From NCBI RefSeq assembly GCF_000027125.1, contig NC_017626.1: 64,000 nt of DNA. One strand, written 5' to 3'. The translations under genes and the position numbers were made by a program. The notes below the pieces were generated by a model that saw only the letters and a list, made by a program, of their open reading frames with translations, was not told the origin of the DNA and did not search any database. This DNA comes from Escherichia coli 042 (GTDB taxonomy: Bacteria > Pseudomonadota > Gammaproteobacteria > Enterobacterales > Enterobacteriaceae). Shown piece after piece: positions 6,263 to 49,505 of the stretch (position 1 is its first letter; every line of letters begins with the position of its first letter).

Positions 6263-9166
<2,904 letters not shown>

Positions 9167-9359: not shown

Positions 9360-9435
9360 TGGCGTCCCCTAGGGGATTCGAACCCCTGTTACCGCCGTGA
9401 AAGGGCGGTGTCCTGGGCCTCTAGACGAAGGGGAC
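9360..9435 (-). tRNA. gltW: tRNA-Glu in the 16S-23S spacer
   Basis: 76-nt reverse-complement match to tRNA-Glu (tggcgtcccctaggggattcgaacccctgttaccgccgtgaaagggcggtgtcctgggcctctagacgaaggggac). Confidence 0.95.
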
Positions 9436-40722: not shown

Positions 40723-41204
40723 TCAGACACTTCCTGAAGTGAATATCCTCAAGGAACCATTATTAAATATAATATTAAATGTAGATTGTCAAATATATTT
40801 GAATATTTATTAAAAATATATTCACAACGACCAATCACAAATAAATTTAATCCCCCATAAATAATTAGAGGATCAAACCAAGTTCCTGATGCCTTATCTC
40901 TTTTATATCTCATGGTATATGTCTGAATGTCAAAACATGGTATATAACAACCAGAGAGCATTTTTATAGGCTGCTATTATCTGACACTCCTTTCCCCGTT
41001 GCTGTTTCCTATAAAAGAGCCAGAGATAGATAATAGCATTTTTATTTCTATCTTATTCACTCTGGATCGCTCGGCTCACAGCTTATTGGGGCGCTCGGAA
41101 CATCAACATAGGATAAAATACCTACCATTTAAATAAATCATAAGATTATACATGTCAAGATAAAGCATGAAATTATATATAGGTTTATCACGGCTATAGA
41201 TACT

Positions 41205-41516
41205 TCACTCCTGCCTCCCAATCATATCCCCAAGAAACCTTTTTCCTCGTAATTTTAATCTTGCTTTATCTTCAATGCTAATATTCGATAATTGTAATAT
41301 CAGTCCTAATATTAACTCCTTATCTACCTCTTCTACTTTACAGCCCATAGCTTTAGCTACCTCAGCACCAAGGATGATCTTCAAGCGTGTCTCTGCGCTC
41401 TTGGATAGAGATTTTTCTTTACTCTTAAGGCGATTCAGACGCATTTGAGCTGATGCTATTTTTTGCTTAATGGTTTTTTCTGATCTCGGCTTTCTACCTT
41501 TATCATCCGTATTCAT
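41205..41516 (-). CDS. Small basic protein, TraD/MobC-like relaxase accessory candidate
   Basis: 103-aa ORF with motif ETRLKIILGAEV resembling the TraD-type (R/K)TRRKI.LGG signature; divergent from the relaxase gene; SD aggaaaag. Confidence 0.5.
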   Translation of the reverse strand: MNTDDKGRKPRSEKTIKQKIASAQMRLNRLKSKEKSLSKSAETRLKIILGAEVAKAMGCKVEEVDKELILGLILQLSNISIEDKARLKLRGKRFLGDMIGRQE

Positions 41517-41633
41517 AATTACTTTTCCTTCTAGTTGTCAAAAACATGGAATACAATTAAAAAAGGAAAAGGTCAAACCATAGGCAGAAGGTTGAATACT
41601 TTTTATTCCAGATTAAATAACGCAGCGCGAGAT

Positions 41634-41693
41634 GATTGTTCAAAACAATCACATTGCTGGAACAGGGTTCATCCCTGTTAATGATAGGATTCA
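41634..41693. repeat. Copy A of a repeated element of about 58 bp with two internal inverted repeats
   Basis: gattgttcaaaacaatcacattgctggaacagggttcatccctgttaatgataggatt; nearly identical copy at 56962-57018. Confidence 0.7.
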
Positions 41694-42124
41694 TCTCAAA
41701 AAATGATGTTTTGGTTTTAAAAATATGATATTAGTAAGCTCAAAATAAAAACATGCAACACATACGAATGCAGTCACTAACATTAATTACCTGATACTCT
41801 CCGCGTTACTTATTTTATTGAATCAATGAAAACAATTTTACCTCTTGCTTTTTGACTCTGATTTCTGGTCTTAACCTGTGAATTGTGCAACACATAAAAG
41901 TATTTATAATTTTCACTATTTATTTTAAATTCTGCTTTCCCGCCTTACGGCGAGAGACTAATTTAACTACTTTTGCCCTTACGGGCGTTTTCTAAACACC
42001 AGAATCCAATATTATTATCCTACCTCAACCGTTTATCCGATTCCTACCTTTTTAATTTCACAGTCTGTAAAACTAGAGCTATTATTTAACTATAGAAAAA
42101 CATAAAACATTGTCGTTATTTTTA

Positions 42125-42236
42125 GCTCCTTTAGGAGATATAAAAATAAAGCAATGCCCACCTATACACTGCTACGCAGTGTGTGGGGTCTACCGACGGT
42201 TGCCTGCCGCAGGCTAACACCGTTTCCTTCGGAAAC
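42125..42236. promoter_or_regulatory. Candidate origin of transfer (oriT): cluster of inverted repeats
   Basis: IRs ctcct-tt-aggag, acactgc-tac-gcagtgt, gcctgc-c-gcaggc and gtttcc-ttc-ggaaac in a GC-richer patch between the divergent TraD-like and relaxase genes. Confidence 0.45.
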
Positions 42237-42351
42237 AAGGTCAACGTCAACACCAGAGTTTTTCTTACGAAAAACTAAAACCAGCTGAGTCGTATTGGAG
42301 ATTTATATTTTGGTTTGATATTTAAATTTATTTTGAGGTTGTTTTTATTAT

Positions 42352-43860
42352 ATGGCTATTTTTCATCTGGATTTTAAAATTGTGAAACGTTCTGAAGGCA
42401 GATCTTCCGTTGCGAAAGCTGCCTATCATGCTCGTACACGTATAACAGATGAAAGAACAGGTGATACCTATGATTATAGTCGCCGTACCGATTTATACGG
42501 ACATTTCATATTAGCACCAATTAATGCTCCAGAACATATCGTGAAAGACTCTACAGCATTGTGGAATGAAGTTGAAAGAGTTGAGCGCCAGAGCAATGGT
42601 CAAACATCCCGTTATTTCGATGTTGCCATACCTGCCGAGTTAAACAATGACGACAAGAAAAGACTTGTCCTTGAGTATTGTCAGAAAAATTTCGTTGATA
42701 AAGGCATGATTGCCGATATCGCTTTCCACGATCTTGATAGCGATAATCCTCATGCTCACGTTATGTTGACATTAAAAACCATAGGCCCTGAAGGTTTTGG
42801 TAAAAAAGAAAGAAGCTGGAACGACAGAAAAATGTCTGTTATATGGCGTGAATCATGGGCATCTATGGCTAACAGCTACCTTGCTGCCGCTGGCTCGTCA
42901 GAACGTATTGACCATCGTTCTCTTCAGGCCCAGCATGAAGAGGCATTAGAAAAAGCGGCGGTAGCTTTAGATAATGAAGAAAAAGCGCTATGGCTTGCTA
43001 AAGCCGCTGAAACAAACCGTCCTCCAATGAAGCGTATCCATAGTGCCAAATGGCGTAGTAAAGCAGCACAAGAGCAAAGAGCAGCAGAACAGGCTGTTCG
43101 TGATGCTGCCAAGCAGGAAGCGGTTGAAGTCTACAAGACTTTCAGCGAACTTGATCTTGAAATCGTCGTTGATGTCAGAAGCTTCACCGTGGCTGCTCTT
43201 GCTGAACCAGAAGAGATTGTATTACCAGAAACGCGCTCCGGCTCTTCTTCTCATGAAGCACAAAGTCCTGTATTGGTAGCGCCTATTCCTCATACTCATG
43301 TGCGTGGAGTTAAATCTTACCGCGATAAAGAAAAAGTGAGTAAAGTTGTCATTAATAATATATCAGAACCAAATGTTGCTGATGCTGACATAAACACTCT
43401 TTGGAAAACATCTCCATCTAAAACCAAAAATATGGCATCCAAAAGTACCGCTGAAAGTGTTAAAAGGAAACAGGCTAATCCGCGTCAGGATAATATCTTT
43501 AAACGCTTTACAACGCTTTTGATCGGTTTCTTCAAAGAGAAATTTATATGGGCTAAGAAGAAACCTGATCCTACCGAGATTGAACATGACAGGCATGTAG
43601 CAGAAAATTACGTCTTTGATGAAGTGCTGGGTGTCTATGTATCACGCGCTGACCATGAACAACGAGCCAGATTCAACGGTGATGATAAAGAGTTCTCTGG
43701 TTACAAGCCAACACCTGATGAGATTAAGCGTTTTCCAAGCCGTCTAGCTAATACAGCACAAACTGATAGAGAGCTCGACTACATGCCTTCGCTCGTGGCT
43801 GATAAGAAATCGTTAGCACCTAAATTGAAACCAAATGCTCCCTATAAAAATAGATTATAA
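42352..43860 (+). CDS. MobA/MobL-family (MobQ-type) relaxase
   Basis: N-terminal relaxase signatures: AKAAYHARTRITDERTGDTYDYS (catalytic Tyr region), LWNEVERVERQSNGQTSRYFDVAIPAEL and the histidine triad HDLDSDNPHAHVM; SD gaggt. Confidence 0.85.
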   Translation: MAIFHLDFKIVKRSEGRSSVAKAAYHARTRITDERTGDTYDYSRRTDLYGHFILAPINAPEHIVKDSTALWNEVERVERQSNGQTSRYFDVAIPAELNNDDKKRLVLEYCQKNFVDKGMIADIAFHDLDSDNPHAHVMLTLKTIGPEGFGKKERSWNDRKMSVIWRESWASMANSYLAAAGSSERIDHRSLQAQHEEALEKAAVALDNEEKALWLAKAAETNRPPMKRIHSAKWRSKAAQEQRAAEQAVRDAAKQEAVEVYKTFSELDLEIVVDVRSFTVAALAEPEEIVLPETRSGSSSHEAQSPVLVAPIPHTHVRGVKSYRDKEKVSKVVINNISEPNVADADINTLWKTSPSKTKNMASKSTAESVKRKQANPRQDNIFKRFTTLLIGFFKEKFIWAKKKPDPTEIEHDRHVAENYVFDEVLGVYVSRADHEQRARFNGDDKEFSGYKPTPDEIKRFPSRLANTAQTDRELDYMPSLVADKKSLAPKLKPNAPYKNRL

Positions 43861-44097
43861 ATGATAATATAATTCCCAAAAATATATCTTTCCCCTAAAG
43901 ATTGACCATATCATATACTAAATAACATCATGACTATATTCCTAAGTACTCAAAACCTTGAATTCTATCAACTAAAATGGTATATTATTTTGTTTTTTTG
44001 ATTTTCAATTGCATTGTGATAAGATATTTCATACATTGATTGAGAATATTAAAGAAACGATAATGTATCTTACTTTCATCAATTAGTCGAGGTTATC

Positions 44098-44628
44098 ATG
44101 TCAACTCCTGAGGATGCTTTCAAAAAAAAATTACTAGCTGCTCAACAAGAAAAAGATGAACTTGTTAGGAAAAATCAAATTGATGCAGAGCGTAAAAAAC
44201 AAATCATTGCTGAAAAAATTAGTTTTTATCAAAAACACCAAAATGATTTCATACAACAAGTTATTGAATGGGCCAGTAGTGCAGATTTAAATATCTCATC
44301 ACTTAACATTAGTTATTACGATTATGGTCATTTATTTCAAACAACAGGCATAAGCATTGAATATGATGGTAAAAAAGTTCAGTTTATTCCGCAAGGAGTA
44401 GAACGTGGAACTTTTCTAGGTATCATAAAATTAGATTTTACTAACGCAAATTCATTCATTCAATACTATTTCGGTTTGTCTGCCAATAAAAATGAAGCCG
44501 AACCATATTGGACTTTTGTTCAATATGATACTCAAAACCCTAGTGCTTGGCAGGAAAACTCAAAGCGCATGTCAAAAGAGCTATTCTTTGAAATAATTGA
44601 AAGTATATTACTTCCACCAAAATCATGA
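44098..44628 (+). CDS. Hypothetical protein (176 aa)
   Basis: ORF with SD gaggt upstream; no recognisable motif. Confidence 0.55.
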   Translation: MSTPEDAFKKKLLAAQQEKDELVRKNQIDAERKKQIIAEKISFYQKHQNDFIQQVIEWASSADLNISSLNISYYDYGHLFQTTGISIEYDGKKVQFIPQGVERGTFLGIIKLDFTNANSFIQYYFGLSANKNEAEPYWTFVQYDTQNPSAWQENSKRMSKELFFEIIESILLPPKS

Positions 44629-49097: not shown

Positions 49098-49505
49098 ATG
49101 TCTGATGCTTTAAAGATCATCAACAATATTCGTACTCTCCGTGCTCAGGCTCGTGAACTGACACTCGAAACCTTGGAAGAGATGTTAGAAAAACTCACTA
49201 TCGTTGTAGAAGAACGTCGTGAAGAAGAGGCCTCATTTCTAAAACAGCAGGAAGAGAAACAGGCCAAGCTGGAAGCATTCCGTCAGAAGTTGTTGGAAGA
49301 TGGCATAGACCCGGCAGAGTTGCTTTCAACTGTTAGCCCATCTTCTTCCAAGACAGGAGCGAAACGCGCCCCACGTCCAGCTAAGTATAAATATGTTGAT
49401 ACCGATGGTTCGGAAAAGACGTGGACAGGTCAGGGCCGAACTCCTCGTGCTATCGCTGCTGCGCTCGAAGCCGGTAAGACACTGGAAGATTTCGAGATCA
49501 AGTAA
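49098..49505 (+). CDS. H-NS family nucleoid-associated protein (island-encoded paralogue)
   Basis: 135 aa; [33 protein letters not shown]... and C-terminal DNA-binding motif TWTGQGRTP, very close to recalled H-NS/StpA. Confidence 0.9.

What the first reader, a model, noticed from the sequence alone, without database searches (positions are those of the whole stretch)
41205..43860. Mobilisation module: MobA/MobL relaxase, TraD-like accessory gene and candidate oriT, with no mating-pair genes in view
The relaxase N-terminus carries the catalytic Tyr region and histidine triad HDLDSDNPHAHVM. Between it and the divergent small basic gene lies a patch with four short inverted repeats (42125-42236), as expected for oriT. 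The island therefore looks like an integrative mobilisable element that depends on a helper conjugation system.
Basis: partly seen in the sequence, partly recalled or inferred. Interest (0 to 1): 0.6.

Follow-up and report, generated by a model that had tools for sequence, protein, structure and literature searches.

The report
Genomic-island mobilisation module with oriT

Summary
ORF 42352-43860 is a MobQ-family relaxase with Tyr25 and the H126/H134/H136 triad. ORF 41205-41516 is a Ti-type TraD accessory protein. The last 200 bp before the relaxase gene is a structured patch that chance does not explain.

Across 40 Enterobacterales species the patch is conserved and shows compensatory changes in its hairpins. 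Through a close relative it aligns with the experimentally validated oriT of the MOBQ4 plasmid ColE9-J. By homology with the RSF1010 nick site, I predict nic between 42187 and 42188 on the + strand.

The module lies in a low-GC island of about 26 kb at ssrA, with a P4-like integrase. The island is a relative of the published ROD21-like (EARL) islands, where a MobA/MobL relaxase plus TraD is a known conserved module. The finding is therefore a new member of a known kind.

The claim of no mating-pair genes in view is wrong. The island carries divergent TraY (DotA) and TraW (IcmX-like) homologues at 50325-54609. It has no ORF of the size of a T4SS ATPase or coupling protein apart from TraY, so it still needs a helper, probably an I-type one.

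No function has been tested. Deleting the ROD21 relaxase homologue did not change that island's transfer.

The parts
41205..41516 (-). traD-like relaxosome accessory gene (103 aa, basic), transcribed divergently from the relaxase gene
   Evidence: Pfam TraD PF06412 at 1.1e-12. It is 48% identical to the TraD of a 4-kb Klebsiella MobQ plasmid and 38% identical to MobC of the MOBQ4 plasmid ColE9-J. PGAP names the identical protein 'conjugal transfer protein TraD'.
41872..41892 (.). Conserved 21-bp box TAACCTGTGAATTGTGCAACA; function unknown
   Evidence: Conserved in most of 33 loci. Not tested further.
41935..41990 (+). Two small GC-rich hairpins, CCCGCC-TTAC-GGCG(A/G)G and GCCC-TTAC-GGGC. The second is terminator-like in this window.
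   Evidence: Only one pair covaries, so the role is unresolved.
42057..42085 (+). Sigma-70-like promoter (TTCACA-17-TATTAT) reading toward the relaxase gene. It would place oriT in the mRNA leader.
   Evidence: 10 of 12 consensus matches. Both hexamer regions are conserved in the locus alignment. The number of promoter-like sites in the region is not above chance.
42116..42149 (.). AT-rich palindrome enclosing GCTCC-TTT-AGGAG. It is specific to one clade and absent from the ROD21-like clade.
42157..42187 (+). oriT recognition hairpin. Outer stem CCCAC/GTGGG (42157-42161 with 42183-42187), bulge CTAT, inner stem ACACTGC/GCAGTGT (42166-42172 with 42176-42182), loop TAC.
   Evidence: Alignment A2. 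Three inner-stem pairs show changes on both sides. ColE9-J oriT and the Klebsiella p6 plasmid have the same architecture.
42187..42188 (+). Predicted nic site: GTGTGGG|GTCTACC
   Evidence: Inferred by alignment to ColE9-J GTGTGCG|CCCTGCG and RSF1010 TAAGTGCG/CCCTCCC (nick position from the table in PMC4814816's companion source PMC4814116). Not mapped experimentally.
42188..42197 (+). 3-bp stem GTC-TACC-GAC immediately 3' of the predicted nic
   Evidence: Two of the three pairs change on both sides (GTC/GAC to CCC/GGG) in 4 loci, and all cells are paired.
42202..42214 (+). Hairpin GCCTG-CCG-CAGGC
   Evidence: Nearly invariant in 41 sequences, 97.5% of cells paired.
42222..42236 (+). Optional hairpin GTTTCC-TTC-GGAAAC
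   Evidence: Present in about half of the loci and absent as a clean indel in the rest. Probably dispensable.
42240..42251 (+). Direct repeats GTCAAC GTCAAC (2 to 4 copies in relatives); candidate protein-binding iterons
42257..42276 (+). Hairpin or palindrome AGTTTTTC-TTAC-GAAAAACT
   Evidence: The stem is invariant while the loop varies (TTAC, TTGC, TTTC, TGAC, TCAC) across 40 loci.
42352..43860 (+). MobQ-family relaxase. The catalytic domain spans about residues 1-200. The C-terminal 300 aa match no known domain.
   Evidence: dN/dS is 0.02-0.19 for the N-domain and 0.10-0.34 for the C-part against 28 species.
50325..51578 (-).
   Evidence: hhalign of a 54-sequence profile against IncI TraW gives probability 99.2%, E 1.4e-19. 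The AF2 model has pLDDT 86. Its only meaningful PDB fold hit is 9ngy_AP1, a chain of the DotA-IcmX protochannel (probability 1.00, E 9e-3, TM 0.34).
51949..54609 (-). DotA/TraY-family membrane protein; same island
   Evidence: TIGR04346 at 419.7 bits against a cutoff of 100. PDB DotA 9ngy at 4.7e-42. Only 21-24% identical to plasmid TraY proteins.
35384..37142 (+). Island left end: ssrA (tmRNA, 35384-35746) followed by a P4-like tyrosine integrase (35871-37142)
   Evidence: ARAGORN. NCBIfam NF007246 at 442 bits against a cutoff of 434. GC falls from about 0.50 to 0.32-0.42 between about 36 and 62 kb.

Best explanation
The interval is a complete MOBQ-class DNA-processing (Dtr) module of a chromosomal island integrated at ssrA.

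Proposed mechanism:
- The relaxase recognises the hairpin at 42157-42187 on the + strand.
- It cuts the + strand next to the hairpin, predicted between G42187 and G42188, using Tyr25 and a metal held by H126/H134/H136. It stays covalently bound to the 5' end.
- The small basic TraD/MobC-type protein, made from the divergent gene, assists relaxosome assembly at the neighbouring repeats.
- A conserved promoter upstream of oriT probably makes the relaxase gene autoregulated.
- The island has no coupling protein and no T4SS ATPases, so the nucleoprotein must be handed to a co-resident conjugative element.
- The helper is most likely an I-type (IncI/L/M, MPF_I) system. That system is the best helper for the nearest plasmid relatives (MOBQ4), and the island carries its own TraY/TraW homologues.
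- Transfer would start at 42188 and run toward the relaxase gene.

Shown here: the gene families, the active-site residues, purifying selection, hairpin conservation and covariation, and homology of the core to a validated oriT.

Inferred only: the exact nic, the helper type, the direction of transfer, and mobilisation itself.
For: Relaxase identity and active site.

Purifying selection: intact ORFs in 28 species with N-domain dN/dS of 0.02-0.19.

TraD family and homology to MOBQ4 MobC.

Structured patch: z = -5.55.

Conservation: 791 of 5426 complete E. coli genomes carry the intergenic region, as do 40 Enterobacterales species.

Covariation: 8 pairs with changes on both sides, against 2.0 +/- 0.9 in shuffles (0 of 500 reach the observed value) and 0-2 in slid controls.

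Homology to a validated oriT: the core of the relative L021 aligns to ColE9-J 7097-7147, inside the validated 178-bp oriT, at E 7.5e-5, and to the Klebsiella p6 plasmid at 4.2e-5 (PMC6856555).

Nick-core similarity: GTG(G/C)G(G/C)(T/C)CT resembles the RSF1010 core GTGCG/CCCT (PMC4814116).

Uniqueness: the core occurs once in the window.

Helper type: MPF_I plasmids are the best helpers of MOBQ4 plasmids (PMC6856555).

Need for a helper: apart from TraY, no island ORF is large enough to be a T4CP or VirB4.
Against: No experiment exists for this island.

In ROD21, the studied relative whose relaxase domain is about 75% identical, deleting the relaxase homologue SEN1980 did not change the roughly 1e-8 transfer frequency. 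That transfer depended on the F-like plasmid pSLT (PMC3976249, PMC6035254).

The window's own core gives no significant direct BLAST hit to ColE9-J oriT, so the link runs through a relative.

The nick core matches the MOBQ consensus only in part (5 of 8 bases 5' of nic and 4 of 7 bases 3' of it).

I found no convincing attR, so excision competence is unproven.

The nearest sequenced strain carries only an IncFII plasmid whose traG is disrupted by IS elements, so it has no I-type helper.
Confidence: 0.75

Rival explanations
1. The module is a vestige. It is retained on the island but does not contribute to the island's transfer, which occurs by other routes such as cointegration or Hfr-like mobilisation by a plasmid.
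For: Deleting the ROD21 relaxase homologue left transfer unchanged (PMC3976249). The nearest strain has no suitable helper. No attR was found.
Against: The ORFs are intact and under strong purifying selection in 28 species. Compensatory changes in the oriT hairpins are not expected in decaying DNA. The ROD21 assay used only an F-like helper at about 1e-8, whereas the relatives' best helpers are I-type (PMC6856555).
Confidence: 0.12
2. The hairpin patch is mainly a regulatory leader or operator, acting as RNA structure or as palindromic protein sites that control relaxase expression, and is not an origin of transfer.
For: A conserved promoter-like site at 42057-42085 would transcribe the patch as a roughly 260-nt leader. 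Covariation alone cannot distinguish RNA stems, ssDNA stems and symmetric protein sites.
Against: The patch is homologous to a fragment shown to act as oriT in ColE9-J (PMC6856555). An RSF1010-like nick core sits next to the hairpin. Most loops are 3 nt (TAC, TTC, CCG), which I judge more typical of DNA hairpins than RNA ones. There is no Rfam match. The two roles are not exclusive: in R1162-type systems the oriT and the mob promoters overlap (my knowledge, not checked here).
Confidence: 0.08
3. The relaxase and oriT serve mainly for rolling-circle replication and maintenance of the excised island rather than for transfer.
For: Related islands carry a RepL-type maintenance gene. Relaxase-driven replication is known for some integrative elements (my knowledge, not checked here).
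Against: Nothing here supports replication directly. The nearest relatives are mobilisation modules of plasmids that have their own separate replicons (PMC6856555).
Confidence: 0.04
4. The island is self-transmissible through an unrecognised minimal secretion system built around TraY and TraW.
For: TraY/DotA and TraW/IcmX homologues are present.
Against: No candidate ATPase, coupling protein, secretin-like core or pilin of suitable size lies in the roughly 26-kb island. Most relatives of the module lack TraY/TraW within 10 kb.
Confidence: 0.01

Closest known systems
Mobilisation module of ROD21-like (EARL) genomic islands of Enterobacteriaceae (PMC6035254)
   Same: A MobA/MobL (MOBQ) relaxase with a divergent TraD homologue on an excisable low-GC island. 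The island also has a P4-like integrase, full-length and truncated H-NS homologues, a SEN1982-type lipoprotein and DUF6387. The relaxase domain is about 75% identical to the Salmonella Enteritidis protein. The upstream oriT core is shared.
   Different: This island sits at ssrA, not tRNA-Asn. Its integrase is only 31-35% identical to those beside tRNA-Asn or tRNA-Phe copies. It has TraY/TraW instead of the PilS/PilV-like genes reported for ROD21. In the papers I searched, no oriT had been delineated for this family.
MOBQ4 mobilisable plasmids (ColE9-J, pIGWZ12/pE2022_4; PMC6856555)
   Same: A relaxase with Y25 and an H-x7-H-x-H motif, a small divergent accessory gene (MobC, homologous to this TraD), and oriT in the intergenic region. 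The architecture matches: outer stem, TTAT/CTAT bulge, inner hairpin, then GTG.G...CT. MPF_I plasmids are their best helpers.
   Different: The relaxase domains are only 47% identical, whereas MOBQ4 members average 84%. The element is chromosomal, not a plasmid. The intergenic region is 835 bp rather than 178 bp. The C-terminal part is unrelated, with no SogL-like region.
RSF1010/R1162 MobA-oriT (MOBQ1)
   Same: The HUH relaxase fold and catalytic residues. A hairpin lies 5' of a G-rich nick core, TAAGTGCG/CCCT against TGTGTGGG/GTCT (PMC4814116).
   Different: The relaxase match to the solved R1162 domain is weak (E 8.9e-7). There is no primase fusion. The accessory protein differs (TraD-type rather than MobB/MobC). 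The nick lies 5 nt from the inner stem rather than 8 nt.
Ti-plasmid Dtr system (TraA relaxase, TraC/TraD, oriT; MOBQ2)
   Same: The relaxase N-domain scores 180 bits on TIGR02768 TraA_Ti. The accessory protein belongs to the Ti TraD Pfam family.
   Different: The score is below the TraA_Ti cutoff because the helicase part is missing. No TraC was recognised and there is no cognate T4SS.
SGI1-type integrative mobilisable elements that encode replacement mating-pair subunits (analogy only)
   Same: A non-self-transmissible island that carries its own versions of a few helper T4SS components next to its own relaxosome.
   Different: The helper class differs (IncC, MPF_F) and so do the proteins (TraN/TraH/TraG, MpsA). 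Nothing here shows that TraY/TraW are incorporated into a helper machine. The SGI1 details are from my own knowledge.

Membership tests
MOBQ relaxases (MobA/MobL, NCBIfam MobQ) | The N-terminal domain matches the family HMM above the curated cutoff | tested here: met
   NF041496 at 259.7 bits against 200. Pfam PF03389 at 3.5e-55.
MOBQ relaxases (MobA/MobL, NCBIfam MobQ) | Catalytic Tyr in motif I, and an H-x-D/E...H-x-H metal triad in motif III | tested here: met
   Y25 and H126/H134/H136 align with NES and with R1162 Y25 and H112/H120/H122. D90 aligns with R1162 E76, but Y88 replaces E74.
MOBQ relaxases (MobA/MobL, NCBIfam MobQ) | Site-specific nicking and covalent attachment at a cognate oriT | not testable with these tools
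   Needs an in vitro cleavage assay or primer extension.
MOBQ4 clade (PMC6856555) | High identity of the first 300 residues to the clade (84% on average within it) | tested here: not met
   47% identity over 212 residues to ColE9-J MobA. It is a relative, not a member.
Origin of transfer (oriT) | Lies next to the relaxase gene, between the divergent relaxase and accessory genes | tested here: met
   The core at 42150-42214 lies 138 bp upstream of the relaxase start codon.
Origin of transfer (oriT) | A conserved inverted repeat 5' of a conserved nick core, maintained in evolution | tested here: met
   Homology to the validated ColE9-J oriT through L021 at E 7.5e-5.
Origin of transfer (oriT) | Confers mobilisation in cis | not testable with these tools
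   Needs a mating assay.
Ti-type TraD accessory protein (PF06412) | Matches the family HMM; a small protein encoded beside oriT | tested here: met
   1.1e-12 over residues 38-95. No NCBIfam model hit.
EARL (ROD21-like) island family | Integration at a tRNA-Asn gene with the family's integrase and RDF module | tested here: not met
   The island lies 3' of ssrA. Its integrase is 31-35% identical to those of tRNA-Asn or tRNA-Phe copies and 83-86% identical to other ssrA copies.
EARL (ROD21-like) island family | Conserved MobA/MobL plus TraD module and H-NS homologues | tested here: met
   PMC6035254.
Integrative mobilisable element | Intact integrase with flanking att repeats, so that the element can excise | tested here: inconclusive
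   The integrase is intact. Only an 8-bp match, GTTCAACT at 61945-61952, resembles the ssrA 3' end.
Integrative mobilisable element | Own relaxase and oriT but no complete mating-pair system or coupling protein | tested here: met
   Only TraY and TraW homologues are present. No other ORF of T4CP or VirB4 size exists in 35.8-62 kb.
DotA/TraY and TraW/IcmX (MPF_I protochannel pair) | Homology to both partners | tested here: met
   TraY: TIGR04346 at 420 bits, DotA 9ngy at 4.7e-42. TraW: hhalign 99.2% against IncI TraW, with 9ngy_AP1 as the top fold hit.
DotA/TraY and TraW/IcmX (MPF_I protochannel pair) | Encoded within a complete I-type transfer region (traW-traX-traY-excA) | tested here: not met
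   Compare the island with IncI plasmid pB7A_99. The small ORF upstream of traY is not demonstrably TraX.

The most novel reading that the evidence does not exclude
The island is a mobilisable element that brings its own version of the I-type 'protochannel' (TraY/DotA plus TraW/IcmX). These proteins would be inserted into a helper IncI/L/M mating machine. This could favour transfer of the island, or let it escape ExcA-TraY entry exclusion. It would be a counterpart for I-type systems of what SGI1 does to IncC plasmids with its own TraN/TraH/TraG. Alternatively, the pair could act against the helper, as a fertility inhibitor or as exclusion.
Probability: 0.2. Interest if true: 0.7.

Novelty: new member of a known kind. 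Interest (0 to 1): 0.4.

Why it matters
About one in seven complete E. coli genomes carries this module, always on the chromosome (787 of 5426). Islands in many enterobacterial pathogens carry it too. Yet its transfer origin has not been defined in the papers I could search, and the one genetic test used a helper that is probably the wrong one.

The predicted oriT, nick site and I-type helper preference turn an annotation into a short list of bench tests. Those tests could explain how ROD21-like virulence islands spread.

The orphan TraY/TraW pair, if functional, would be a new way for a hitch-hiking element to manipulate its helper's secretion channel.

Tried and rejected
- Rfam scan of 41100-42500 at E up to 1: no family. 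No known RNA explains the hairpins.
- Direct BLAST of the window's oriT core against ColE9-J and the Klebsiella p6 plasmid: not significant because the hairpin arms differ. Only the relative L021 links them.
- MAFFT alignment with the R1162 oriT misaligned. That comparison was done by eye on the nick core only.
- My recalled RSF1010 nick position (after GCGCC) was wrong. I corrected it to GTGCG/CCCT from PMC4814116.
- TraW-like protein: no hit in Pfam, NCBIfam, PHROGs, single-sequence PDB search or profile PDB search. Only the profile-profile comparison and the fold search worked.
- ORF 54626-55150 as a TraX homologue: no similarity. The small ORFs upstream of traY-like genes in other loci are not alignable with one another.
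- attR: no direct repeat of 11 bp or more, and no copy of the ssrA 3' end with up to 3 mismatches. Only 8-bp chance-level matches turned up.
- The upstream hairpins at 41935-41990 as an sRNA: one covarying pair, weak consensus energy, and no T-run in most relatives. Left open.
- I considered and rejected a self-transmissible element, because no ATPase or coupling protein is present.
Full report
**Setting**

The window is E. coli chromosome. Positions 41000-44100 are 99.9% identical to isolate AHB1, NZ_OZ547150.1. ARAGORN finds ssrA (tmRNA) at 35384-35746. It is followed directly by a P4-like tyrosine integrase at 35871-37142 (NF007246, 442 bits against a cutoff of 434). GC content drops from about 0.50 to 0.32-0.42 between roughly 36 and 62 kb. 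The finding therefore lies inside a horizontally acquired island of about 26 kb at ssrA.

RefSeq annotation of the near-identical record lists, in order:
- the integrase
- a DUF3644 protein
- a DNA methyltransferase
- 'conjugal transfer protein TraD'
- 'MobQ family relaxase'
- several hypothetical proteins
- a SEN1982-family lipoprotein
- an H-NS homologue
- a 'TraW family protein'
- a 'DotA/TraY family protein'
- a truncated H-NS
- an HTH regulator
- a DUF6387 protein

**Checking the observation**

ORF 42352-43860 (+) is 502 aa and contains IAFHDLDSDNPHAHVM. It matches Pfam MobA_MobL at 3.5e-55 over residues 17-196. It matches NCBIfam MobQ at 259.7 bits against a cutoff of 200. It also matches the solved relaxase domains of NES (4ht4, 4.8e-26) and R1162 MobA (2ns6, 8.9e-7).

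In those alignments Tyr25 and H126/H134/H136 fall on the catalytic Tyr and the metal triad. D90 aligns with R1162 E76. These residues are conserved in 12 diverse homologues and in the full-length ORFs of 28 other species.

ORF 41205-41516 (-) is 103 aa and basic. It matches Pfam TraD PF06412, the small Ti-plasmid TraD and not the F coupling protein, at 1.1e-12.

As single-stranded DNA, 42100-42300 folds 5.5 standard deviations better than dinucleotide shuffles.

**Is the hairpin patch an oriT?**

The intergenic region occurs in 791 of 5426 complete E. coli genomes, always on chromosomes, at identities down to about 70%. A scan of one genome per species found the relaxase in 40 Enterobacterales species at 55-98% identity over the relaxase domain. 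These include Salmonella relatives, Yersinia, Pectobacterium, Dickeya, Serratia, Klebsiella and Brenneria.

Aligning the upstream DNA shows that conservation is concentrated in one block:

AATGCCCAC-CTAT-[hairpin]-GTGGG GTC-TACC-GAC GG TTGCCTGCCGCAGGC TAA

This block is followed by:
- an optional hairpin, GTTTCC-TTC-GGAAAC, present in about half of the loci
- two to four GTCAAC direct repeats
- a hairpin, AGTTTTTC-loop-GAAAAACT, whose stem is invariant while its loop varies

The inner hairpin occurs in at least six sequence versions that keep pairing:
- ACACTGC/GCAGTGT
- ACACTCAC/GTGAGCGT
- ACGCTCAC/GTGAGCGT
- ACATTGC/GCAATGT
- ACACTC/GAGTGT
- ACGTCGC/GCGACGT

On the 41-sequence alignment, 8 of 32 pairs show changes on both sides. 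The control shuffles give 2.0 +/- 0.9, with 0 of 500 reaching the observed value. Structures slid by 1-3 columns give 0-2. The 3-bp stem GTC/GAC becomes CCC/GGG in four loci.

The nearest plasmid relatives of the relaxase are small enterobacterial MobQ plasmids (50-56% identity). A 3998-bp Klebsiella plasmid has the same layout of TraD, intergenic region and MobQ relaxase. The MOBQ4 plasmid ColE9-J has MobC, a 178-bp intergenic region and MobA. That 178-bp region was shown experimentally to act as oriT, and MobC was shown to enhance mobilisation (PMC6856555).

ColE9-J reads GTGCGCAC-TTAT-ACAATC...GATTGT-GTGCGCCCTGCGGGG. This is the same architecture: outer stem, 4-nt bulge, inner hairpin, G-rich core. 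The outer stem itself covaries with ours (CCCAC/GTGGG against GCGCAC/GTGCGC).

The window's own core gives no significant direct BLAST hit, because the arms differ. The core of its close relative L021 aligns to ColE9-J 7097-7147 at E 7.5e-5 and to the Klebsiella plasmid at 4.2e-5. The window's TraD-like protein is 38% identical to ColE9-J MobC and 48% identical to the Klebsiella TraD.

ColE9-J contains the canonical MOBQ nick core GTGCGCCCT. The RSF1010 nick is TAAGTGCG/CCCTCCC (table in PMC4814116). I confirmed that the RSF1010 oriT string I used exists at 100% identity in IncQ-type plasmids. Carrying this over gives GTGTGGG|GTCTACC in the window, that is between 42187 and 42188 on the + strand. 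This point is exactly the junction between the large hairpin and the 3-bp stem. It is a homology inference, not a mapped site. The core occurs once in the window.

A conserved sigma-70-like promoter (TTCACA-17-TATTAT, 42057-42085) reads through the patch toward the relaxase gene. The oriT therefore probably doubles as the mRNA leader or operator. No Rfam family matches.

**Is the module alive?**

Against 28 species, the relaxase domain has dN/dS of 0.02-0.19. The C-terminal part, which matches no known domain, has 0.10-0.34. The ORFs are intact and the active-site motifs are conserved. Decaying DNA would not show this pattern, nor the compensatory changes in the hairpins.

**Context and what is already known**

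A MobA/MobL relaxase plus a TraD homologue is a published conserved module of the Enterobacteriaceae-associated ROD21-like (EARL) islands. The authors of that work already proposed that the relaxase recruits the island to a helper T4SS (PMC6035254).

The present island shares that module, the H-NS pair, the SEN1982-type lipoprotein and DUF6387. It is, however, integrated at ssrA, with an integrase only 31-35% identical to those beside tRNA-Asn or tRNA-Phe copies. Across species the same module sits on islands at three sites:
- tRNA-Phe (L002, L013)
- tRNA-Asn (L016, L041)
- ssrA (window, L009, L019, L021, L034)

The mobilisation module is therefore exchanged between integration modules. In the ROD21 papers I could read, oriT is mentioned once or not at all.

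One experimental result counts against the interpretation. Deleting the ROD21 relaxase homologue SEN1980 did not change ROD21 transfer, which ran at about 1e-8 and depended on the F-like plasmid pSLT (PMC3976249). That experiment had no I-type helper. For MOBQ4 plasmids, the I-type plasmids R64drd11 and pCTX-M3 were by far the best helpers (PMC6856555).

**The claim of no mating-pair genes**

ORF 51949-54609 (-) is a DotA/TraY-family protein. It scores 419.7 bits on TIGR04346 against a cutoff of 100 and matches Legionella DotA in PDB 9ngy at 4.7e-42.

ORF 50325-51578 (-) has no Pfam, NCBIfam or PDB sequence hit. However:
- A 54-sequence profile built from 105 remote homologues matches IncI TraW by hhalign at 99.2% probability, E 1.4e-19.
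- An AlphaFold model (pLDDT 86) has as its only meaningful PDB fold match a 417-residue chain of the DotA-IcmX 'protochannel' structure, which I take to be IcmX (9ngy_AP1, probability 1.00, E 9e-3, TM 0.34). The fold match is modest.

In R64 and pCTX-M3, traW and traY are essential transfer genes, and TraY together with ExcA forms the entry-exclusion system (PMC6112013).

The island versions are very divergent. TraY is 21-24% identical to plasmid TraY proteins, and TraW has no plasmid hit by tblastn except one copy of the same island. In E. coli they are found only on chromosomes, in 190 of 5426 genomes. They recur with the same kind of module:
- in a UPEC-type island with TraD, MobQ relaxase, RepL, an H-NS pair and DUF6387
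- as a 37%-identical TraY next to TraD and a MobA_MobL relaxase in a metagenomic contig

Most relatives of the module lack them within 10 kb. They are therefore an accessory feature and not required for the module.

Apart from TraY, no island ORF is large enough to be a VirB4-type ATPase or a coupling protein. The island cannot transfer itself. The closest sequenced strain has a single plasmid, an IncFII plasmid whose traG is broken by IS elements.

**Verdict**

The thing itself is a new member of a known kind, already named as such by automatic annotation.

This analysis adds four things:
- a delineated oriT, with evolutionary support and a predicted nick
- a link to the validated MOBQ4 oriT
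- a predicted I-type helper
- a correction: the island does carry two I-type mating-channel homologues

The most novel reading still open is that this pair is used to remodel or evade a helper's machine.

Noticed in passing
window 50325-54609 (-): An orphan pair of I-type T4SS 'protochannel' homologues, TraW/IcmX-like and TraY/DotA-like, sits on an island that has no other secretion-system genes. In E. coli the pair is found only on chromosomes (190 of 5426 genomes). It recurs beside MobQ/TraD modules in distant relatives.
   Followed up: yes
window 41872-41990: A conserved 21-bp box, TAACCTGTGAATTGTGCAACA (it contains TGTGA-N6-CAACA, loosely CRP-like), is followed by two small GC-rich hairpins that share CCTTACGG. 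All are conserved across genera but only one pair covaries. The function is unknown: possibly an accessory-protein site, a terminator or a small RNA.
   Followed up: partly
loci L002, L013 (tRNA-Phe); L016, L041 (tRNA-Asn); window, L009, L019, L021, L034 (ssrA): The same relaxase-oriT-TraD module rides on islands with three different integration sites and with integrases only 31-35% identical. This points to exchange between the mobilisation and integration modules.
   Followed up: yes
window 61890-62290: No convincing right-end attachment repeat was found. Only an 8-bp match to the ssrA 3' end (GTTCAACT, 61945-61952) is present. The right flank is a long minus-strand ORF (62281-63873, running toward the window's end), which I take from memory to be ypjA. 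The otherwise near-identical AHB1 record has glaH at the corresponding place instead.
   Followed up: partly
window 37164-40559: Between the integrase and traD lie a DUF3644 protein (37164-38501), a DNA methyltransferase (38836-39882, -) and a divergent 242-aa ORF (39831-40559). This may be a restriction-modification or defence cargo, in the position where ROD21 carries pilS/pilV-like genes.
   Followed up: no
window 49098-49505 (+) and about 58423-58662 (-): A full-length H-NS homologue and a truncated one lie on the island, as described for EARL islands.
   Followed up: no
window 42222-42251 and alignment A2: The hairpin GTTTCC-TTC-GGAAAC is a clean presence/absence indel among relatives, and the GTCAAC repeat varies from 2 to 4 copies. 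The oriT periphery is therefore modular.
   Followed up: partly
L091 (NZ_OZ547151.1, the plasmid of the nearest strain): The only plasmid of the near-identical strain AHB1 is an IncFII F-type plasmid whose traG is interrupted by IS21-family elements. No I-type helper is present in that genome.
   Followed up: partly
window 9360-9435 (-): A tRNA-Glu gene lies in a stretch with strongly negative GC skew (about 6-11 kb). It is probably part of an rRNA operon. It was not examined and is unrelated to the finding.
   Followed up: no
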